Shown: positions 8,982 through 56,021, counted from the stretch's first letter. The stretch: 64,000 nucleotides of DNA from an uncultured Bdellovibrionales bacterium (GCA_964609855.1 CAZSTB010000006.1:365-64364), one strand, 5' to 3'. Made by a program: numbers and translations. The notes: generated by a model not told the origin, from the sequence alone.

Positions 8982-10444
8982 GGATTTTTTTGTTGTAACA
9001 TTTTATAGATGAAGATGTTTTGACCGACTTGATTTTTATTTTCAAAAACAAGTGCGGCATTTTTCTGAATAAATTTTACCATACTTTTATCAGATCTGGA
9101 AATTGACATATCATCCAGTATTATTAAAACTGAAGAATCACCCGCTATTTCTAATATCTGTGACGGTGTAAAAAGGCGCTGCGAATTTGTATAATATTCC
9201 GTTGAAAACAGCAAAGCGGAATCGTTAGGCAGTCCAGAATAGGATATGGGCAAGGCGAAATCAGATTTTCCTAAGTAGATATAATCCAAAAAGGGATATG
9301 CAGAGATAACGATATAATTTTCATTGGAGTGTGTAATGTGCTCATAAGCCGCCGAAAAATCTGGCTGCGGAGTATATGTCTCAAGAAAATAATGTGCAGA
9401 CGGCTTAAAGGTAATTGAAGCAAAGCTTATTTGATTAATAAGTAAGATTAATGTGAAAAATAGAAAAGTTAATCGGGTTTTTTCTTTAGTAAGAAAATTA
9501 ATACAATATGAAGCGTATATGAAGATTAGCGGCGAAATAAAAAAAAGATAGCGACGCTGGTTTATGAGCGAAAAAAAAGCAAAGAAAGTGATGGATAATA
9601 TGAAAATTAAAATATTTAATTTCGTTAATTGCTTTTCCTGTTGATGGTTATTTTTTAGATGCAAATACGCCCCGACTGCTGCAAGTACAAAAAATAGTCC
9701 ATAAAATTGCCACAGATAATCTACAACATAGTACTTTAAATAATTCTGATGAAAAGGCGAAAAAATCTTAATTAAAAAATTGTAGTTGAGCGCGATAAAA
9801 GAGCCGATTAGTGCGGCAAAAAGGGAGTATATATAATATGGCACCCTCTTTTTTCGATAGAAAATAAATATTAAAAATGAAATCGTAACTATTACTCCAA
9901 TATTGGATTTTGCTAGGATTGCAAAGCATAATGTTATCAGGAGCAACAGGAGCCATTTTTTATTTTGTGATTTTTCATAATACAAATAAAAAAGCTGGGC
10001 AAGTAAAAATAGGAACACGAATAGGGAATATGACCTAATCTGTCTGCTCCAGGCAATGTGCCAGTATGAAAAAGAAAGCAGAAATGCGGAAAATAAAGCA
10101 ATATTTTTATTGAAGTATGTTTTTGCAAGGAAGTAAATAACAAGAATTGAGGCAATTCCAAAAAAGGCGGCAGTAAGTCTAAAGCTTTGGATATTTTCGC
10201 CAGCTAGAAATCTCAAGCCACTCAATATGTATGGAAAAAGTACATCTTTGTATTCAATATTGCCAGACATCAGCAAGGGATAGCCGTGCTCAAAAATACT
10301 TTTTTCTTGCATCATTGTGAACCCTTCGTCAATCCATAGAGATTGTTTTCCGATGTCGTATACCCTTAAAAATGCTCCGTAGACAATTATGAAAAACAAT
10401 GAAAGAGCGTGTTTATATTTGGAGATTGTTTTAAATATAAACAT
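8978..10444 (-). CDS. ArnT/PMT (GT39/GT83)-family polytopic membrane glycosyltransferase
   Basis: 488 aa with about 11-13 TM helices. N-terminal loop with acidic residues (DEGF), as in dolichyl/undecaprenyl-phosphate-sugar transferases. ATGA stop/start overlap with 8004-8981. Confidence 0.55.
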   Translation of the reverse strand: MFIFKTISKYKHALSLFFIIVYGAFLRVYDIGKQSLWIDEGFTMMQEKSIFEHGYPLLMSGNIEYKDVLFPYILSGLRFLAGENIQSFRLTAAFFGIASILVIYFLAKTYFNKNIALFSAFLLSFSYWHIAWSRQIRSYSLFVFLFLLAQLFYLYYEKSQNKKWLLLLLITLCFAILAKSNIGVIVTISFLIFIFYRKKRVPYYIYSLFAALIGSFIALNYNFLIKIFSPFHQNYLKYYVVDYLWQFYGLFFVLAAVGAYLHLKNNHQQEKQLTKLNILIFILSITFFAFFSLINQRRYLFFISPLIFIYASYCINFLTKEKTRLTFLFFTLILLINQISFASITFKPSAHYFLETYTPQPDFSAAYEHITHSNENYIVISAYPFLDYIYLGKSDFALPISYSGLPNDSALLFSTEYYTNSQRLFTPSQILEIAGDSSVLIILDDMSISRSDKSMVKFIQKNAALVFENKNQVGQNIFIYKMLQQKNP

Positions 10445-11602: not shown

Positions 11603-12424
11603 TTATCCGCGTATTTTTTTAATGAGTTCAATGTCTTCTTTTACAAAATCATATTCAGTTTCGCAGATCATGGTGATGTCTCTTTCTTTTGCGAAAGCCA
11701 CAATGTTTCTGAAAGCTTCTTCGCCGATCAGACCCTTGCCGAGATGTTCGTGGCGATCTTTGCGCGAACCGAATTCTGTTTTGCTGTCATTGGTGTGAAT
11801 CAGTTTTATTTTATCGAGTCCAAGTTCGGCGTCTATTCTTGCAAGGGTATTTTTAAAGTCGCGCCAATCATAACCTGATGCAAATGAATGTTGGGTGTCG
11901 ATGCAAATTCCCGTGAGTTTCGGATGATTTATTTTTTCTAAGATGTATAAGATTTCCGAAAATTTGTCCCCGATTATTTTTCCTGCTCCGGCGCAATTTT
12001 CAATCAGAAGTTCGGCGCTTCCAGTGTATCCTTCCAATGTTTTGGCGAGCATCTCAACAACTTTGTCGGAAGCTTCTCTCTCGGAAAGTGTTCCCGCACT
12101 TCCAAGATGGGTCATGACATATTTAGCACCAAGAAGACTCGCTCTTTCAAGTTCATCTCGAACCACACTGACACTTCCATGACGGATACGATTATTTTCG
12201 GATGCGAAATTTATATAGTAGGGAGTGTGGACCACGACTTCTTTAATTTTAAATTTTAAATTTGAAATTTTAAATTTATGACAGATCTCATCTGTCAGGG
12301 TTAGTGCTTTTCCTCCTTGTGGCGACCGCGTGAAAATCTGCATGGCTTCGCAGCCGAGTTCAGCGGCTCTTTCAGGGGCATTAAAAACTCCTCCAGCAAT
12401 TGAAACGTGACAACCTATGTACAT
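11603..12424 (-). CDS. nfo: deoxyribonuclease IV (endonuclease IV, AP endonuclease family 2)
   Basis: Full-length similarity pattern: MYIGCHVSIAGG...HxxY...metal ligands. TIM-barrel AP endonuclease 2. Confidence 0.85.
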   Translation of the reverse strand: MYIGCHVSIAGGVFNAPERAAELGCEAMQIFTRSPQGGKALTLTDEICHKFKISNLKFKIKEVVVHTPYYINFASENNRIRHGSVSVVRDELERASLLGAKYVMTHLGSAGTLSEREASDKVVEMLAKTLEGYTGSAELLIENCAGAGKIIGDKFSEILYILEKINHPKLTGICIDTQHSFASGYDWRDFKNTLARIDAELGLDKIKLIHTNDSKTEFGSRKDRHEHLGKGLIGEEAFRNIVAFAKERDITMICETEYDFVKEDIELIKKIRG

Positions 12425-12585: not shown

Positions 12586-12660
12586 TTGGACAAGCGCCAA
12601 AAAATGTGCTATAATAGATAAGTAATAAGAAACGGGTGATTTTGCCCGTTTCTTTTCTTT
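12586..12660 (+). promoter_or_regulatory. promoter TTGGACA-N18-TGCTATAAT followed by leader hairpin AAACGGG/CCCGTTT plus U-tract
   Basis: Extended -10 TGCTATAAT at 12607-12615. GC hairpin at 12630-12650 followed by a T-run, ending about 15 nt before the ATG of 12675. Confidence 0.5.
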
Positions 12661-12674
12661 TTTAAAACAAAAAA

Positions 12675-13397
12675 ATGGAACTGAGTTACCAAAAAGAGGA
12701 TACAATCGTAATGAGTGATTTTCATTTAGGCTCTCGTAATAGTAAATCTAAAGAAATCGCAAGATTCCTAAATGAGCTCTTAAAAAAACCACTAAACAGG
12801 TTGGTTTTAGCAGGGGATATGTTTGAGTTTTGGAGTGCAAGCTATAAAAATATCGGAATCGAAGAGCATCGGATAATTAAGCTTATTGCGCAGCTCTCGG
12901 AAAATGGAACTAAGATAGTCTATATCCCGGGAAATCACGACAGGGCTTTCAGGGCTTTCCCGAAACTCACCTTTGGCCGTGTAAAGATGCGCAACGAATA
13001 TATTATCAAGCACGATCATAAGAAATACTTAGTGATGCACGGAGACGAATTCGACGCTTTCACGAGAAATCATGCGGTTGTTTCCATTTTAATAGACCAG
13101 CTGTATGTTTTTTTAATCAGAATAAACTCATTTTTGAGAACTTATTCTCGTTCAAAAAAATCACTTTCGGCGCTTAAACATTCGAGAACATACGCTGAAA
13201 CAGTGGAAAAAATTCGAAGTTTGGCAATTTCTTATGCGCGTTCAAGAAAATTAGACGGAATTATTATTGGTCACAGTCATTGGCCGGAACTTGTGCACGA
13301 AGCTGACGGTGTCATGTATGCAAATGCAGGCGACTGGATTGAGAGTTGCAGCTATGTGGTTATTGGCGACAATATAAGATTGGAATACTTTAAATAA
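12675..13397 (+). CDS. LpxH-like metallophosphoesterase (UDP-2,3-diacylglucosamine hydrolase family)
   Basis: VMSDFHLG ... LAGDMFEFW ... GNHD ... GHSH motifs of the calcineurin-like LpxH subfamily. Confidence 0.6.
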   Translation: MELSYQKEDTIVMSDFHLGSRNSKSKEIARFLNELLKKPLNRLVLAGDMFEFWSASYKNIGIEEHRIIKLIAQLSENGTKIVYIPGNHDRAFRAFPKLTFGRVKMRNEYIIKHDHKKYLVMHGDEFDAFTRNHAVVSILIDQLYVFLIRINSFLRTYSRSKKSLSALKHSRTYAETVEKIRSLAISYARSRKLDGIIIGHSHWPELVHEADGVMYANAGDWIESCSYVVIGDNIRLEYFK

Positions 13398-41734: not shown

Positions 41735-42616
41735 ATGAAATTAAAAAAACTTTTATTTCTTAGCTTATTTCTTAGCTTATTTTTTGTTGGAAATGGCGTA
41801 GAAGCCGTAACTGAGTGCGAAACCGCCGGCGGAATTTGCAGTATTTTTTCGAATATGACTTGCGAATCCAGGCATTTATTGGGAAAGGAAGATATGGTAA
41901 CCACAAATCTCTCGTGCAACAATAGTGCAGCAAGTTGTTGCATGCCAAAAGTTGCCACTCCTGCAATAACAGCACCAGTTACAACACCAACCACACCAAC
42001 TACAACTCCAGTTACAACCCCAGTTACAGCCCCAACCATTAACACTCCAACTACAAATACCCCAACTGTTAATCCTCCAGTTACGGCTAATGCAAATGCT
42101 TGTTCAGATCTTGAGTATTTAGGTCGCGATGGAAATTGTTATCCCAAGGAGAATCTAAATATAGAAAATGGCAATTTATGTTCCGATATTGAGTATCTAG
42201 GTCTCGACGGAAATTGCTACCCAAGGGAAAACTTAAACATTGTAAATGAAAATAATAACACTTTCCCCGGTGTGCCTAGTGGCGGCGCTCAGACTGCCAA
42301 ATGCGGCAATGGCTTCTATGAGAAAGGAAATGTTTGTTTTCCAACACAAACGGGACTGCCAAGTCCAGAAAACGGTGTAGTTCAAATTCTCAGTAACCTT
42401 TTTTCCTGGTTAATGGGTTTATTTACCATACTTTCGTTGGCAGCTTTCACGGTTTCTGGCATTCAATATGTAATTTCTGCTGGAGATTCAGGTTTGGCTG
42501 AAACTGCCAAGAAAAACGCAGTCAATTCAATTATTGGAATTGCAGTGGGACTTTCTGGATTTATCATCGTACGGGCCATAAATGCGGCACTTACTGGGCA
42601 GGGTTTTTTCTTTTAG
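41735..42616 (+). CDS. Cys-rich, Thr/Pro-linker secreted protein fused to C-terminal T4SS pilin-like module (paralog of 40841-41710)
   Basis: Internal tandem duplication CSDLEYLGRDGNCYPKENLNIENGN / CSDIEYLGLDGNCYPRENLNIVNEN. PTTPTTTPVTTPV linker. Motif QYVISAGDSGLAETAKKNA. Confidence 0.5.
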   Translation: MKLKKLLFLSLFLSLFFVGNGVEAVTECETAGGICSIFSNMTCESRHLLGKEDMVTTNLSCNNSAASCCMPKVATPAITAPVTTPTTPTTTPVTTPVTAPTINTPTTNTPTVNPPVTANANACSDLEYLGRDGNCYPKENLNIENGNLCSDIEYLGLDGNCYPRENLNIVNENNNTFPGVPSGGAQTAKCGNGFYEKGNVCFPTQTGLPSPENGVVQILSNLFSWLMGLFTILSLAAFTVSGIQYVISAGDSGLAETAKKNAVNSIIGIAVGLSGFIIVRAINAALTGQGFFF

Positions 42617-42619
42617 CGA

Positions 42620-42700
42620 TTGACTTTGAAACAAAAACGTGCTAAACTACGTATAGATAGATGAGAGTATGGATTCGCTGGAAAGCGAATCTTTTTCTTT
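42620..42700 (+). promoter_or_regulatory. promoter TTGACT-N17-TGCTAAACT followed by leader hairpin GGATTCGCT/AGCGAATC plus U-tract
   Basis: Direct inspection, about 130 nt upstream of nusA. Confidence 0.45.
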
Positions 42701-42831
42701 TAAAATCTCCCATTTAATGAGCTTATCATCGGATTATCTGCCGAAATTACGCTCAAAAGGGGAATAAAAATTTAATATGTTGTCTTTTAAACTTCGGCTT
42801 TCGGGCTGGATTAAATAAGACACGAAAAATT

Positions 42832-44049
42832 ATGGTAGCAAAGAAAAAAGTGGCTGAAGAAAGCCAGGAGCAAGGAACTAGACTAGGGGAATTTGGAAGT
42901 GCAATCATGCAGATTGCTGAAGAAAAGGGTATACCTAAAAATGTGGTTATTGAGACTATTGAAGCTGCTCTTGCTGCAGCATATAAGAAAGATTACGGTA
43001 AAAGAGGTCAAAGAATTCGGGCAGAATTCCAGGAAGTCGGTGGAAATACTAAATTCTTCCTTATTAAAGATGTTGTTGATGAAACCCTGAGGGAATTTGT
43101 TGAGGGAGAAGAGGAAGATGAAGAGATTGAGCTTCCCGAAGAAGCTGGAGATGATGAAAAATTACCTCGCTACAATCCAGAAAGAGATATTTTGCTGGAT
43201 GAAGCCAAAAAACTTAAAAAAGATGCAAAAATCGGAGATATAATTGAAATTGAACTTGAGCCACAAACCGAGTATGGTCGCGTGGCTGCTCAGACTGCCA
43301 AGCAGGTCATTATTCAACGTATTCGCGAAGCTGAACGTGATTCTATGTTTTCTGAATACAAAGGAAAAGAAGGAGAAGTGATGAGCGGAACTGTGCAAAG
43401 AATTGAGGGTAGAAACACTTATATCGACCTTGGAAAATCTGTAGGAGTTTTGTTCCCATCCGAGCAAGCTCCAGGCGAAATGCTTAGAATGGGGCAGCGC
43501 GTAAAAGTTTATCTTTACAAGGTTGAATCAGATCCTAAAGGTCCTGGAATTACTTTGAGCCGAACTCATCCTGACATGGTTCGTAAACTTTTTGAATTGG
43601 AAGTTCCTGAAATCTTTGCTGGTACTGTCGAAATCAAGTCAATCGCAAGAGAAGCTGGATCTCGCACAAAGATGGCGGTTTTTTCTAGCGAAGAGGGAAT
43701 TGATCCGATTGGTTCATGTGTTGGGCAAAAAGGGACTCGCGTGCAAGCTGTAATTGAAGAACTTGGCGGAGAAAAGATTGATATCATTGAATGGAGCGAA
43801 AAACCAGAAAAATATATTGCTGCTGCAATCAGTCCAGCAAAAGTACTTTCTGTTGAACTAAATACTGACAGAAAAGAGGCTAAGGCGACTGTGCCAGAAG
43901 ATCAGCTTTCACTAGCGATAGGCAAACAAGGTCAGAATGTGCGCTTGGCTGCAAAATTGACTGGTTGGAAGATCGACGTTATCGGCGCAAAAGTTGAGCC
44001 TAAAAAGGAAACTGAAGCTGAGGCACTGGAAACAGAAGTAACTGAATAG
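42832..44049 (+). CDS. nusA: transcription termination/antitermination factor NusA
   Basis: N-terminal domain, S1 (GEVMSGTVQRIE...), and two KH domains (GxxG). Confidence 0.85.
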   Translation: MVAKKKVAEESQEQGTRLGEFGSAIMQIAEEKGIPKNVVIETIEAALAAAYKKDYGKRGQRIRAEFQEVGGNTKFFLIKDVVDETLREFVEGEEEDEEIELPEEAGDDEKLPRYNPERDILLDEAKKLKKDAKIGDIIEIELEPQTEYGRVAAQTAKQVIIQRIREAERDSMFSEYKGKEGEVMSGTVQRIEGRNTYIDLGKSVGVLFPSEQAPGEMLRMGQRVKVYLYKVESDPKGPGITLSRTHPDMVRKLFELEVPEIFAGTVEIKSIAREAGSRTKMAVFSSEEGIDPIGSCVGQKGTRVQAVIEELGGEKIDIIEWSEKPEKYIAAAISPAKVLSVELNTDRKEAKATVPEDQLSLAIGKQGQNVRLAAKLTGWKIDVIGAKVEPKKETEAEALETEVTE

Positions 44050-51430: not shown

Positions 51431-51503
51431 CGGGGCGTGGTGTCAACGGCTAGCACGAGTGCTTTGGGAGCATTTAGACAGGGTTCGAATCCCTGCGCCC
51501 CGA
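51431..51503 (+). tRNA. tRNA-Pro (TGG)
   Basis: Acceptor CGGGGCG/CGCCCCG, D-stem GTGT/GCAC, anticodon stem AGTGC/GCATT with loop TTTGGGA, T-arm CAGGG-TTCGAAT-CCCTG. Confidence 0.8.
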
Positions 51504-51518
51504 CATCAACAAAAAAAT

Positions 51519-51553
51519 AAGGCAGACTTCAAAAGAGTCTGTCTTATTTTTTG
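51519..51553 (+). terminator. rho-independent terminator after tRNA-Pro
   Basis: AAGGCAGACT-TCAAAAG-AGTCTGTCTT followed by ATTTTTTG. Confidence 0.6.
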
Positions 51554-51741
51554 TTGTATATGGAGTTCGCAGGGATTCGAACGGGCAGAAGCTAAGCAAG
51601 ATGTTGTTCAGCAGGACAGCATCGCAGTGTGCGTCGATGAATGCGACCATAGAAGCATTCAGCGCTGCCCAGGGCAAGGAAATTGTGAGCGACGGCGAAC
51701 AAGTGACGAGGAAATCCCTGCCTCTGCGCCCCGACCATGTG

Positions 51742-51770
51742 AAAAAATCCACCTTTTGGGTGGATTTTTG
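51742..51770. terminator. bidirectional terminator-like hairpin
   Basis: AAAAAATCCACC-TTTT-GGGTGGATTTTTG. Confidence 0.55.
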
Positions 51771-53923: not shown

Positions 53924-54370
53924 TTAACGAAAATTATTTTTCTTCATTTCGCTATGAATTTTTTCTACATGACGCTCAGTCTCCTTGTTCATCTTGAAGA
54001 GGACCGCCTTAACCTGCTCACTGGAATGGGCAAAAATTTCGAAACATTTTCTTTCGAGCATTGATTGCTCGATTCGCAATGCTGCCAGCAGTGCTTCGTG
54101 GTGGCTCATTTCTTTCGCTTGCGCTCTTTGTATCTCTTTTAAAACTGAATCCATAACGTAGTGAATTACGCCTCGGGAAAATTTATTTTCCTCCATTGGG
54201 TCCTCACCATCTTTTTGATTCCCGATTTGAGCCGCATGAGCCGTTTCCTCATTTGAAAGTTCTTCCCAAAAGTCCTTTTTAGCCGGTATTTTTTGCGAAT
54301 AAAGCGAATAGAGCGTCGCAATATTCAGTTCATTTTCTTCAAAAAGATGCAGTAGAGGTTTATTGTTCAT
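53924..54370 (-). CDS. hypothetical helical protein (ferritin-like?)
   Basis: 148 aa with helical heptad pattern and His/Glu residues. Assignment weak. Confidence 0.45.
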   Translation of the reverse strand: MNNKPLLHLFEENELNIATLYSLYSQKIPAKKDFWEELSNEETAHAAQIGNQKDGEDPMEENKFSRGVIHYVMDSVLKEIQRAQAKEMSHHEALLAALRIEQSMLERKCFEIFAHSSEQVKAVLFKMNKETERHVEKIHSEMKKNNFR

Positions 54371-54507: not shown

Positions 54508-54577
54508 TTGGACAAAAGTTAAAAAACATGCTATAATGAAAAAAGATAAAGAAAGCGGGTGAAAGCCCGCTTTTTTG
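54508..54577 (+). promoter_or_regulatory. promoter TTGGACA-N18-TGCTATAAT followed by leader hairpin AAAGCGGG/CCCGCTTT plus U-tract
   Basis: Same architecture and near-identical sequence as 12586-12660. Hairpin ends 8 nt before the ATG at 54585. Confidence 0.5.
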
Positions 54578-54584
54578 TATATTT

Positions 54585-56021
54585 ATGGGACCAAAAGATA
54601 TTAACACCGAATATAAGATTTCACAGTCGCATGAAGAAATGGAGGCTGGTTTTGATATTTCTCAGTCTGAGTGCGGAAAGGGTGAGGTTTTTAATAAACC
54701 TCATTTGGTAACTGAAAAAGAAATTCAGGATATTAAAAAAGCAAAACAAGAGAAAGACGCCAAGAATTTGGAAGTTATCAAAATAATGGAGGAAAAGTTA
54801 CTGGATGCAAATCTTGGAAAAATAAGAATTAGGGATATTAAGAAATTTGCTAGAAACGAATATAAGTATGTTTGTGACAATATTAAGAATGAACATGGCG
54901 ATATAGACTGGGAATATGTTGAAGAAAGATTAAGCTTTGAGCTTCCAAAAAATAAGCACTTTTTAACATTTGAATTCGCAGTTAATGAATTAAGAGATAA
55001 GTTGATATCAGATAACCTATTTAGTTTTACTCCAGTTTATGTTGAAAGAAATTGTCCCAAGGCGTATGGTTTTTTCAAACGAAACATCAAAGATGCCGAA
55101 GGAAAAATTGATTGGGGTAAAATTAAAGAAGAGTTGCACTTAGAAGCGCCAGATGGGTATTATGAATCGAAGTGCATAGAGAGTTTAAACAAAGCTATTT
55201 TAGAGACAGCTAAGCCAGTTACTACGATAACAGATTTACACAATCATTATTTTGCTATTTTTCAAGATGTGAAAGCATACTTTCCAGATCAAAAAGGAAC
55301 TATTGATTGGCCGAAAGTCGTTCCTTGTCTTTCTGCAGAAGCTCGCAAAAAATTAAAATTGCCACCCCCTGCACTAACAATGGAATCTGCATTAAAGAAA
55401 CTTGATGATATATTTAAAAGTGTACCTGCCGGAAGAAAAATAACATTTCAACAAATTAAAATGCAAAACCGGGCTCTTTATGCTTTTTTGTTGTTAAATT
55501 TTAAGGATGTTAAAGGCGGTGTTGATTGGAAATTGGTGTCTGAGCAATCAGGTATTGATTTTGATGATAAATTCTTACCTCCTAAAAATCACAAGCGTTC
55601 AACACCAGAGCAACAGTATGAGAATAATGAAGAAATGCAAAAGGCAATTGGTGATAATAAAAAATATTTATATACTTTTTTGCAATCTGATCCAGGGCGA
55701 GAATTTGAAAAACGAAATGAGATTTGTACGGTTCTGATAAACTTGGCGAAAAAAGGCAATAAATCAGCTGAGAATGAGATTATAAATTTAATTTCTTATT
55801 TAGCCGATAGGTGGGTGGAAACAATTCCAAATTTTGAGGTATGGAAATATCATAAGGATCGAGAACTAGAAATAATTAGACGTTGTATATATAATTTTGA
55901 GCCTAAGGTGCCCTTTGTAGGTTATGTGTATAAAACATTAAAAATGGCATCTCTTGGCTTGGAAAGAAGAACTGAAATTGAATACAATGATGGAGTAAGG
56001 ATAAGGCATGCAACTAAATAA
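54585..56021 (+). CDS. hypothetical protein with four internal (D/G)xIDW...V repeats
   Basis: GDIDWEYVEERL, GKIDWGKIKEEL, GTIDWPKVVPCL, and GGVDWKLVSEQS spaced about 60-70 aa apart. Confidence 0.5.
   Translation: MGPKDINTEYKISQSHEEMEAGFDISQSECGKGEVFNKPHLVTEKEIQDIKKAKQEKDAKNLEVIKIMEEKLLDANLGKIRIRDIKKFARNEYKYVCDNIKNEHGDIDWEYVEERLSFELPKNKHFLTFEFAVNELRDKLISDNLFSFTPVYVERNCPKAYGFFKRNIKDAEGKIDWGKIKEELHLEAPDGYYESKCIESLNKAILETAKPVTTITDLHNHYFAIFQDVKAYFPDQKGTIDWPKVVPCLSAEARKKLKLPPPALTMESALKKLDDIFKSVPAGRKITFQQIKMQNRALYAFLLLNFKDVKGGVDWKLVSEQSGIDFDDKFLPPKNHKRSTPEQQYENNEEMQKAIGDNKKYLYTFLQSDPGREFEKRNEICTVLINLAKKGNKSAENEIINLISYLADRWVETIPNFEVWKYHKDRELEIIRRCIYNFEPKVPFVGYVYKTLKMASLGLERRTEIEYNDGVRIRHATK

What the first reader, a model, noticed from the sequence alone, without database searches (positions are those of the whole stretch)
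12586..12674. Conserved promoter plus immediate GC-hairpin/U-tract leader shared by two unrelated genes (and a variant upstream of nusA)
12586-12660 and 54508-54577 both read TTGGACA-N18-TGCTATAAT, then about 13 nt A/G-rich, then AAGAAA(C/G)CGGGTGA(TTTT/AA)GCCCG(T/C)TTTTT. Each hairpin ends only 8-25 nt before the start codon: 12675 for the LpxH-like gene and 54585 for the IDW-repeat protein. A related arrangement sits upstream of nusA (42620-42700: TTGACT-N17-TGCTAAACT, then GGATTCGCTGGAAAGCGAATC plus TTTTTCTTTT). These look like intrinsic terminators placed at about +15 to +40 of the transcripts. That would make them attenuators, a pausing or processing signal, or 5' stabilising stem-loops. 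The near-identity between two unlinked loci suggests a shared regulatory module.
Basis: seen in the sequence. Interest (0 to 1): 0.6.

Follow-up and report, generated by a model that had tools for sequence, protein, structure and literature searches.

The report
Promoter-adjacent terminator leader in Moranbacteria
Two unrelated genes in this uncultured groundwater bacterium (Candidate Phyla Radiation, Moranbacteria-like) each sit behind a near-perfect promoter followed at once by a conserved stop-signal hairpin, and relatives keep this arrangement, so it is most likely a shared "brake" on transcription of a kind not yet catalogued.

Summary
Both sites read TTGGACA-N14-TGCTATAAT-N11-AAGAAA-(G)CGGGTGA…GCCCG-T-run. 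The spacer is N14, not N18. That gives 2 matches against 0 expected by chance.

The window comes from a Moranbacteria-like member of the Candidate Phyla Radiation (CPR). Both sites lie between divergent genes, so the hairpins cannot terminate an upstream gene.

- **Conservation.** 21 of 25 orthologous loci of the LpxH-like gene (51-84% protein identity) keep the promoter, hairpin and T-tract. So does the 38%-identical orthologue of the second gene. Three further unrelated genes in relatives carry the same unit.
- **Hairpin.** The lower stem covaries (A-U to G-C). The top, C-GGG-Y-G…CCC-G, never varies.
- **Specificity.** Of 137 terminator-like hairpins in 372 kb, all 21 with GGGYG are these leaders, and none of the other 116 has it.
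- **Strength.** By stem energy they match genuine 3' terminators, and their T-tract scores are higher.
- **No switch in cis.** No alternative antiterminator structure can form, and longer variants only extend the same hairpin.
- **nusA site.** It shows a conserved promoter-then-terminator arrangement but belongs to a different sequence family.

Best reading: a promoter-proximal attenuator set by a trans-acting factor. It has the GGGc…gCCC signature of the published rimP-leader but sits before other genes. Rfam has no match. Function is inferred, because no transcript data were available.

The parts
12586..12592 (+). Copy 1, -35 region TTGGACA (TGGACA with a 17-nt spacer)
   Evidence: TTGGACA or a close variant is kept in most orthologous loci.
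12607..12615 (+). Copy 1, extended -10 TGCTATAAT
   Evidence: TG-TATAAT is invariant in 19 of 19 aligned modules.
12616..12626 (+). Copy 1, initially transcribed stretch AGATAAGTAAT. The start site is inferred at about 12621-12623 and was not mapped.
   Evidence: Sequence. A WGATA-like start is shared by many orthologues.
12627..12654 (+). Copy 1, terminator-like hairpin AAGAAACGGGTG / ATTT / TGCCCGTTTCTT, with the conserved core GGGTGA at 12634-12639
   Evidence: -15.8 kcal/mol, z -3.5; covariance model (CM) R1, 52.7 bits; covariation.
12655..12663 (+). Copy 1, T-tract TTCTTTTTT that continues the T-rich 3' arm
12664..12677 (+). Copy 1, A-rich spacer without a Shine-Dalgarno sequence (SD), then the ATG (12675) of the LpxH-like metallophosphoesterase gene 12675-13397
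   Evidence: The start is supported by the N-termini of orthologues.
54508..54514 (+). Copy 2, -35 region TTGGACA
54529..54537 (+). Copy 2, extended -10 TGCTATAAT
54549..54576 (+). Copy 2, hairpin AAGAAAGCGGGT / GAAA / GCCCGCTTTTTT. It has a GNRA tetraloop and the core GGGTGA at 54557-54562. The T-run lies inside and just after the 3' arm.
   Evidence: -17.5 kcal/mol, z -4.6; 47.1 bits. It is conserved in the 38%-identical orthologue L044.
54577..54587 (+). Copy 2, 8-nt spacer GTATATTT and the ATG (54585) of the 478-aa IDW-repeat protein gene 54585-56021
42620..42648 (+). nusA leader promoter TTGACT-N14-TGCTAAACT. It starts 3 nt after the stop codon (42614-42616) of the T4SS-pilin gene.
   Evidence: TTGACA-N14-TGnTAnnnT is kept in L126, L128 and L129.
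42671..42702 (+). nusA leader hairpin GGATTCGCT/GGAA/AGCGAATCT plus the T-run TTTTCTTTT. This is a separate sequence family without GGGYG…CCC. nusA starts at 42832.
   Evidence: conserved, with an A-U to G-C compensatory change against L126 and L128.

Best explanation
Each copy is one transcription unit's front end.

**Proposed sequence of events.**
1. A near-consensus housekeeping promoter (TGGACA, 17-nt spacer, TG-n-TATAAT) starts an RNA.
2. The first 5-40 nucleotides of that RNA fold into a GC-topped hairpin, A-rich arm / C-GGG-Y-G…CCC-G / U-rich arm.
3. A long U-tract follows, so the whole is an intrinsic terminator.
4. Most polymerases should stop there and release an RNA of about 40 nt. 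Only read-through polymerases transcribe the gene, which begins 8-25 nt further on.

The RNA cannot form an alternative structure, so the fraction that reads through must be set in trans. The setting factor would be a termination or antitermination protein, with NusA the obvious candidate, or RNA chaperones such as cold-shock proteins. This is the mechanism Naville and Gautheret proposed for the rimP-leader, which has the same GGGc…gCCC signature.

**Shown.** Sequence, position, conservation, covariation, terminator-grade parameters and recurrence before unrelated genes.

**Inferred.** The start site, actual termination, dependence of the gene on read-through, and the existence and identity of a trans-acting factor.
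For: 1. **Leader position.** Both copies lie between divergent genes. There is no room for a second promoter between the hairpin and the ATG (8-20 nt).
2. **Conservation.**
   - 21 of 25 non-redundant orthologous loci of the LpxH-like gene (51-84% identity) keep the promoter, hairpin and T-tract.
   - The orthologue of the second gene at 38% identity keeps it too.
   - Further copies precede three unrelated hypothetical genes: L061 at 9535, L062 at 2111 and L065 at 2573.
3. **RNA pairing.**
   - 90.4% of cells are paired, against at most 70.7% when the partner columns are slid.
   - Three pairs show A-U to G-C double changes (14 cells).
   - 0 of 500 shuffles reach the covariation score.
   - The U-to-C change at the Y position creates a C-G pair.
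4. **Terminator grade.** Mean energy is -12.0 against -13.5 kcal/mol for 50 genuine 3'-end terminators of the same loci (not significant). The T-tract score is 4.86 against 4.00 (p = 0.001).
5. **Specific signature.** All 21 GGGYG hairpins among 137 terminator-like hairpins in 372 kb are these leaders. None of the other 116 has GGGYG or a TGnTATAAT promoter within 40 nt upstream. Leader-position terminators are almost exclusively this type.
6. **No cis switch.** In the short forms GGG lies only 13 nt after the -10. The long forms fold into a single extended hairpin with the same outer stem.
7. **Precedent.** The rimP-leader is described as a terminator with conserved GGGc…gCCC, a G-rich 5' arm, a C-rich 3' arm and a T-stretch. 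It has no antiterminator and lies 4-130 nt before the gene. Recognition by a protein such as NusA was proposed (PMC2965389).
8. **A second example nearby.** A separate promoter-then-terminator leader is conserved before nusA in the same genomes.
Against: - No transcript 5' or 3' ends were available, so the start site and termination are not demonstrated.
- A strong hairpin with no cis antiterminator predicts very low expression unless a factor intervenes, and no factor is identified.
- The invariant GGG:CCC orientation could be explained without specific recognition. If all copies share descent, G-C pairs cannot flip through viable intermediates.
- Rfam's rimP model (RF01770) does not hit either copy at E up to 10.
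- A model I built from published proteobacterial rimP-leaders puts module hairpins at the top (23.8 bits, E 0.018). It does not separate them from ordinary terminators. The two window copies score only 16.5 and 14.2 bits.
- Termination properties of CPR RNA polymerase are unknown.
Confidence: 0.5

Rival explanations
1. 5' stabiliser. The hairpin sits at the extreme 5' end of the mRNA and protects it from 5'-end-dependent decay (RNase J or RNase Y type). The U- and A-rich stretch after it serves as an unstructured ribosome landing site in a genome that hardly uses Shine-Dalgarno sequences. Termination would be an unselected side effect, or inefficient.
For: - The base of the hairpin lies 8-17 nt after the -10, about 1-10 nt from the inferred start.
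- RNase Y is encoded in these genomes.
- Almost no gene in the window has an SD, so an unstructured A/U leader could matter for initiation.
- That 5'-terminal stem-loops stabilise mRNAs (ompA, aprE, ermC) is established knowledge, recalled from memory.
Against: - A stabiliser needs no U-tract directly after the stem. Every copy has one, and it scores higher than at genuine terminators.
- Other 5' leaders in the window are not T-rich.
- Stabilisers need no conserved sequence, yet C-GGG-Y-G…CCC-G is invariant.
- In several copies 8 or more nt would be unpaired at the 5' end, and in the long forms the structure is far larger than protection requires.
Confidence: 0.22
2. Tiny RNA gene. The unit is an independent gene for an abundant hairpin RNA of about 35-45 nt, whose loop or upper stem (GGGUGA) acts in trans. 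Expression of the downstream gene by read-through would be secondary.
For: - A consensus promoter followed directly by a full terminator is the anatomy of a small RNA gene.
- The core is conserved.
Against: - Every copy found is followed within 8-170 nt by a co-directional gene that has no other promoter. None stands alone.
- Loop sequence and length vary: GAAA, GAUUUU, GUUGC, GAGAAA.
- Four lineages carry 25-45-nt insertions in the loop, which is hard to reconcile with a loop that acts in trans.
Confidence: 0.1
3. DNA operator. The inverted repeat is the binding site of a dimeric repressor that blocks the polymerase just downstream of the promoter.
For: An inverted repeat with invariant GGG/CCC halves sits at about +10 to +35, a classic roadblock position.
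Against: - The outer stem positions covary instead of keeping a fixed half-site sequence.
- Loop length varies from 4 to 8 nt, and in the long forms the two halves are 30-90 nt apart.
- The flanking T-tract is conserved.
- The distance from the promoter varies from 13 to 66 nt.
Confidence: 0.03
4. Riboswitch-like cis sensor with an aptamer embedded in the terminator, as in the HMP-PP (thiS) class. A small ligand binding the hairpin region would decide whether termination occurs.
For: - There is a precedent for aptamers hidden in terminator stems (PMC6478431).
- One regulated gene is a nucleotide-sugar or nucleotide phosphoesterase homologue.
- L065 has a long leader with competing helices.
Against: - The short forms are a perfect hairpin with a 4-8-nt loop, no internal loop or bulge, and almost no 5' sequence.
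- No alternative pairing is available.
- The downstream genes are unrelated and mostly of unknown function.
- There is no Rfam match.
Confidence: 0.05

Closest known systems
rimP-leader (Naville & Gautheret 2010, Genome Biol 11:R97, PMC2965389; Rfam RF01770)
   Same: - A leader intrinsic terminator whose stem carries a conserved GGGc…gCCC, with a G-rich 5' arm, a C-rich 3' arm and a T-stretch.
- No antiterminator, and a position 4-130 nt before the gene.
- Published examples such as GATGGGCGTTTCGCCCATTTTTT and AGTGGGTTAATGCCCACTTTTTTT closely resemble module hairpins such as GATGGGTGAAAGCCATCTTTTT and AGCGGGTGAAAGCCCGCTTTTTT.
- The same logic points to a trans-acting protein.
   Different: - It does not lie before rimP, nusA or infB. 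It precedes an LpxH-like phosphoesterase and several unrelated hypothetical genes.
- It follows its promoter directly.
- An extra invariant G follows GGGY.
- RF01770 does not match.
- My model built from published examples gives only weak scores.
- The real nusA leader hairpin in these genomes has a different sequence.
E. coli metY-rimP-nusA-infB leader terminators (NusA autoregulation, cited in PMC2965389 as refs 42, 43; cold-shock-protein antitermination, from my own knowledge of Bae et al. 2000)
   Same: Strong leader terminators with no cis switch, whose read-through is set by general RNA-binding transcription factors. The nusA leader in the window (42620-42702) fits this context.
   Different: The E. 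coli terminators follow a tRNA gene and lie further from the promoter. Nothing is known about NusA or Csp action in CPR bacteria.
Bacillus subtilis pyrG attenuator (reiterative transcription; from my own knowledge)
   Same: Only the first few transcribed nucleotides and a nearby terminator hairpin are needed, with no aptamer or leader peptide.
   Different: The pyrG mechanism relies on a G-run at the start site that is extended and pairs with the terminator's 5' arm. The modules have no conserved homopolymer at the start, and no 5' sequence complementary to the arm.
HMP-PP (thiS) riboswitch with a terminator-embedded aptamer (PMC6478431)
   Same: Conserved nucleotides sit inside what looks like a plain terminator.
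   Different: The modules are perfect hairpins without internal loops or a preceding helix, and their downstream genes are unrelated in function.
Promoter-coupled terminators (Fletcher et al., bioRxiv 10.64898/2026.08.19.745784)
   Same: A promoter and a terminator share a few tens of base pairs.
   Different: The order is reversed. There the terminator of the upstream unit overlaps the next promoter, with the stem as the -35 and the -10 after the T-tract. Here the terminator lies downstream of its own promoter, and no conserved -10 follows the T-tract.
5'-terminal stabilising stem-loops (ompA, aprE, ermC leaders; from my own knowledge)
   Same: A stable hairpin within a few nucleotides of the mRNA 5' end.
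   Different: Those have no obligatory U-tract and no conserved stem sequence.

Membership tests
Intrinsic (Rho-independent) terminator | GC-rich hairpin followed directly by a U-tract | tested here: met
   Stem energy is comparable to that of 50 genuine 3'-end terminators of the same genomes, and the T-tract score is higher.
Intrinsic (Rho-independent) terminator | RNA 3' ends generated at the U-tract | not testable with these tools
   No transcriptome or in vitro data are available.
rimP-leader (RF01770) | Terminator stem with conserved GGGc…gCCC, a G-rich 5' arm, a C-rich 3' arm and a T-stretch | tested here: met
   C-GGG-Y-G…CCC-G occurs in all 25 module sequences. Compared with the published description and sequences.
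rimP-leader (RF01770) | Lies in the 5' leader of the rimP-nusA-infB operon | tested here: not met
   - The downstream genes are a metallophosphoesterase and hypothetical proteins.
- infB and rbfA are on the opposite strand.
- The nusA leader is a separate element.
rimP-leader (RF01770) | No alternative antiterminator structure | tested here: met
   GGG begins 13-21 nt after the -10, and the long forms are single extended hairpins.
rimP-leader (RF01770) | Match to the Rfam covariance model | tested here: not met
   No RF01770 hit at E up to 10 at either copy or at the nusA leader.
rimP-leader (RF01770) | Match to a model built from published rimP-leader sequences (R2, 16 proteobacterial and clostridial examples) | tested here: inconclusive
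   - The best hits are modules: L040 and L051 at 23.8 bits (E 0.018), and L038 at E 0.049.
- Ordinary terminators score alike.
- The window copies reach only 16.5 and 14.2 bits.
Riboswitch or other cis-sensing attenuator | Conserved sensor domain with mutually exclusive terminator and antiterminator pairings | tested here: not met
   No room and no alternative pairing in the short forms. No Rfam family matches.
Leader-peptide attenuator | Conserved short ORF whose translation controls the hairpin | tested here: not met
   The GTG in the loop is GCG in 4 lineages, and the reading frames and stops are inconsistent.
5' stabilising stem-loop | Hairpin within about 4 nt of the mapped 5' end, lengthening the mRNA half-life | not testable with these tools
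   The start site is only inferred. The distance from the -10 to the stem base is 8-17 nt.

The most novel reading that the evidence does not exclude
The GGGY…CCC terminator is the recognition site of a conserved trans-acting termination or antitermination factor (NusA or a partner). This would be the same site that has marked the near-universal rimP-leader since 2010 without a proven reader. In Moranbacteria it would have been coupled to a consensus promoter and spread as a portable "promoter plus brake" cassette, putting a small regulon of non-ribosomal genes under that factor's control. That would make the rimP-leader recognition problem testable in a minimal system: a transcript of about 40 nt with no other RNA elements.
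Probability: 0.2. Interest if true: 0.7.

Novelty: new variant of a known kind. Interest (0 to 1): 0.5.

Why it matters
CPR bacteria have tiny genomes and few recognisable transcription factors, and almost nothing is known about how they regulate genes. This finding gives a conserved leader element that is absent from Rfam. It controls several unrelated genes from an otherwise constitutive consensus promoter, which points to control at termination and not at initiation.

Its signature matches the rimP-leader, the most widespread bacterial attenuator, whose reader has never been established. The short forms are about the smallest possible attenuator, a hairpin that starts almost at +1. They would be a clean substrate for asking which protein reads GGGc…gCCC terminators.

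If termination turns out to be constitutive or weak, the element is still a useful marker of strong promoters and 5' ends in these uncultured genomes.

Tried and rejected
- **Genome-wide pattern scan.** TGCTATAAT-N11-AAGAAA-N0-1-CGGG in 185,579 species genomes gave 34 hits. All were chance matches with no hairpin, and the source genome is not among the representatives.
- **Viral contigs.** 0 hits.
- **Rfam.**
  - At gathering and at permissive thresholds on both copies and the nusA leader, only terminator-like noise came up.
  - Seven related loci scanned at gathering threshold gave only tRNAs.
  - The long L065 leader at a permissive threshold gave only hairpin-like noise.
- **Leader peptide starting at the GTG in GGGTGA.** Rejected, because four lineages have GCG and the frames and stops are inconsistent.
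- **GGGUGA as an SD-like site pairing with the 16S 3' end.** Weakened. The genome barely uses SD, and the U-to-C variants break that pairing while improving the hairpin.
- **The inserts in the long forms as an aptamer or antiterminator.** Rejected. They fold as an extension of the same hairpin.
- **Hairpin as the terminator of an upstream gene.** Rejected for both copies, because the neighbours are divergent. It cannot be excluded as an extra role at nusA, where the pilin gene's stop codon abuts the promoter.
- **Promoter-coupled terminator model (terminator as the -35 of a downstream promoter).** There is no conserved -10 after the T-tract.
- **Sigma-factor-like C-terminus of the IDW protein.** This was my impression only, and Pfam gave no support.
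- **Model built from published rimP-leaders.** Inconclusive.
- **Mondal et al. 2016 on B. subtilis NusA autoregulation.** The paper is not held in the library, so it was not used.

Full report
**Observation**

The two sites exist as described, with two small corrections.
- Copy 1 reads TTGGACA (12586-12592), 14 nt, TGCTATAAT (12607-12615), 11 nt, then the hairpin AAGAAACGGGTG/ATTT/TGCCCGTTTCTT (12627-12654). TTCTTTTTT follows, then an A-rich spacer and the ATG at 12675.
- Copy 2 reads TTGGACA (54508-54514), 14 nt, TGCTATAAT (54529-54537), 11 nt, then AAGAAAGCGGGT/GAAA/GCCCGCTTTTTT (54549-54576). Eight nt later comes the ATG at 54585.
That equals TGGACA, a 17-nt spacer, then TATAAT with an extended -10.
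- The joint pattern TGCTATAAT-N11-AAGAAA-N0-1-CGGGTGA occurs twice, against 0.00 expected in shuffles.
- The promoters are among the best sigma-70 matches in the window.
- The hairpins fold at -15.8 and -17.5 kcal/mol, with z-scores of -3.5 and -4.6.

**Context**

The window is from a CPR bacterium of the Parcubacteria, Moranbacteria-like.
- Homologues are named Moranbacteria or Parcubacteria, the genes include T4SS-pilin families typical of the group, and the exact proteins occur in Logan assemblies of SRR446576 and SRR446577.
- Copy 1 lies between a minus-strand AP-endonuclease-family gene (11603-12424) and the plus-strand LpxH-like metallophosphoesterase gene (12675-13397).
- Copy 2 lies between a minus-strand hypothetical gene (53924-54370) and the plus-strand 478-aa IDW-repeat gene.
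- Both regions are divergent, so neither hairpin can be the terminator of an upstream gene.
- The 8-20 nt between hairpin and ATG leave no room for another promoter.
- Most genes in the window lack a Shine-Dalgarno sequence, so its absence here is unremarkable.

**Conservation**

I collected orthologous loci of the LpxH-like gene by exact-protein look-ups and one metagenome scan.
- In 21 of 25 non-redundant loci (51-84% protein identity) the upstream region keeps three things: a TTGGACA-like -35, an invariant TG-TATAAT, and a hairpin with the core C-GGG-Y-G followed by CCC-G and a T-tract.
- The second gene has few homologues. Its 38%-identical orthologue (L044/L045) still carries the same unit just before the true ATG.
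- The same promoter-hairpin unit also precedes three unrelated hypothetical genes in relatives: L061 at 9535, L062 at 2111, and a long form at L065 2573.

**RNA pairing**

I built a covariance model from 11 copies (R1).
- It recovers all known copies at 27-53 bits.
- It finds nothing convincing elsewhere in 683 kb, which included control loci from other phyla.
- On the model-fitted alignment 90.4% of cells pair, against 47-71% when partners are slid.
- Three lower-stem pairs show A-U to G-C double changes (14 cells), and 0 of 500 shuffles reach the covariation score. The four top pairs are invariant. An alignment fitted to the model leans toward the structure, but the slid controls use the same alignment.
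- The only variable core position, Y, changes from U (a U·G pair) to C (a C-G pair) in four lineages.

**Specificity and strength**

- Among 137 terminator-like hairpins in 372 kb of non-redundant Parcubacteria sequence, 21 carry GGGYG at the top of the 5' arm, and all 21 are these leaders.
- None of the other 116 has GGGYG or a TGnTATAAT promoter within 40 nt.
- Terminators in leader position are almost exclusively of this type.
- Their stem energy does not differ from that of 50 genuine 3'-end terminators (-12.0 against -13.5 kcal/mol).
- Their T-tract score is higher, 4.86 against 4.00 (p = 0.001).
- By sequence criteria they are full-strength terminators.

**No switch in cis**

- GGG begins 13 nt after the -10 in four lineages, 18-21 nt in most, and 35-66 nt in five long forms.
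- With a start about 7 nt after the -10, the short forms begin essentially at the base of the hairpin, so no upstream antiterminator can exist.
- Four long forms carry 25-45-nt inserts, flanked by direct repeats of the 5' arm (for example AAGATGGG…AAGATGGG in L047).
- Those four and the long L065 leader each fold as one extended hairpin with the same outer stem and T-tract.
- L061a instead has a separate small hairpin ahead of the module hairpin.
- A leader peptide from the GTG in GGGTGA is not supported.
- Pairing of GGGUGA with the 16S 3' end is contradicted by the U-to-C variants.
- A DNA operator is contradicted by the covariation, the variable loop length and the variable distance from the promoter.

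**The nusA site**

The arrangement TTGACA-N14-TGnTAnnnT, about 22 nt, the hairpin GG(A/G)TTCGC-TGGAAA-GCGAA(T)C, a T-run, 110-130 nt and then nusA is conserved in L126, L128 and L129.
- There is an A-U to G-C compensatory change between the window and L126/L128.
- The stop codon of the upstream pilin gene abuts the -35, so this hairpin may also end pilin transcripts.

**Comparison with what is known**

No Rfam family matches.

The closest described element is the rimP-leader of Naville and Gautheret (PMC2965389).
- It has no antiterminator and lies 4-130 nt from the gene.
- They reported this signature in no other 5' or 3' terminator, and argued for a sequence-specific termination or antitermination protein, probably NusA.
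- Their listed sequences closely resemble the module hairpins.

Two membership features fail. The modules are not in a rimP-nusA-infB leader, and RF01770 does not hit them. A model I built from 16 published examples (R2) ranks module hairpins first (23.8 bits, E 0.018). It does not separate them from ordinary terminators, and it scores the window copies at 16.5 and 14.2 bits. That test is inconclusive.

I therefore describe the element as working like a rimP-leader-type attenuator, and I do not file it as a member of that family.

The recent promoter-coupled terminators have the opposite order.

**Verdict**

This is a real, conserved leader element that recurs before several genes in Moranbacteria-like CPR bacteria. 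It consists of a consensus promoter followed immediately by a terminator hairpin with a fixed GGGYG…CCC top.
- The most likely function is transcription attenuation set by a trans-acting factor (confidence 0.5).
- A 5' stabiliser is the main rival (0.22).
- Termination itself, the start site and the factor are all inferred.
- Term-seq, or simple read mapping, would decide.

Noticed in passing
window 51553-51742 (+): A GC-rich stretch of about 190 nt with no gene lies between tRNA-Pro with its terminator (51431-51552) and a second terminator (51743-51769). It starts with a T-arm-like GGAGTTCGCAGGGATTCGAAC. It ends ...AATCCCTGCCTCTGCGCCCCGACCA, which repeats the 3' end of the tRNA-Pro. ARAGORN does not call it, and no Rfam family matches, even at a permissive threshold. 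It could be an odd tRNA-like RNA or an att-site duplication.
   Followed up: partly
L047 2780-2860, L068 6806-6890, L054 377-470, L046 9848-9930: In four lineages the module hairpin carries a 25-45-nt insertion in its loop. The inserts are flanked by 6-8-nt direct repeats of the 5' arm and share the end words YYGCCTYG…CGA(A/G)G. This looks like insertion of a small element with target duplication, or like slippage. The RNA still folds as one longer hairpin.
   Followed up: partly
L126 20950-21060: Another arrangement of promoter, leader and terminator occurs before a 212-aa gene: TATAAT, about 44 nt containing ATATAGATCTGAGAAG (similar to the nusA leader's ACGTATAGATAGATGAGAG), then the hairpin GGGTGAATTCTT/ACGT/AAGGATTCGCTT and a T-run. 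Leader terminators may form several families in these genomes.
   Followed up: no
window, all long ORFs: Only about 7 of 54 long ORFs have any SD-like word within 22 nt of the start. This genome appears to initiate translation largely without Shine-Dalgarno pairing.
   Followed up: no
window 54585-56021: The "IDW-repeat" protein has four or more repeats of the type G-x-(I/V)-D-W-x-x-(V/I). They give sub-threshold hits to a Myb-like DNA-binding domain (PF22980, E 0.0011; 7.5e-05 in the L044 orthologue). It may be a DNA-binding protein. It has very few homologues.
   Followed up: partly
window 42614-42625; L128 and L129 around 9880-9895: The stop codon of the last T4SS-pilin gene lies 0-3 nt before the -35 of the nusA promoter, with no terminator in between. 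Pilin-operon transcripts would therefore run into the nusA leader hairpin.
   Followed up: no
L065 2573-2720: This is a long form of the leader. A GGGUGUACCC mini-hairpin is followed by a 13-bp helix, CCCCCACACCAAU/AUUGGUGUGGGGG, that encloses a second terminator-like hairpin. Then comes GGGGG-UGAA-CCGCU and a U-run. Overall energy is -54 kcal/mol with z -8.6. The Metallophos gene is the second gene downstream there.
   Followed up: partly
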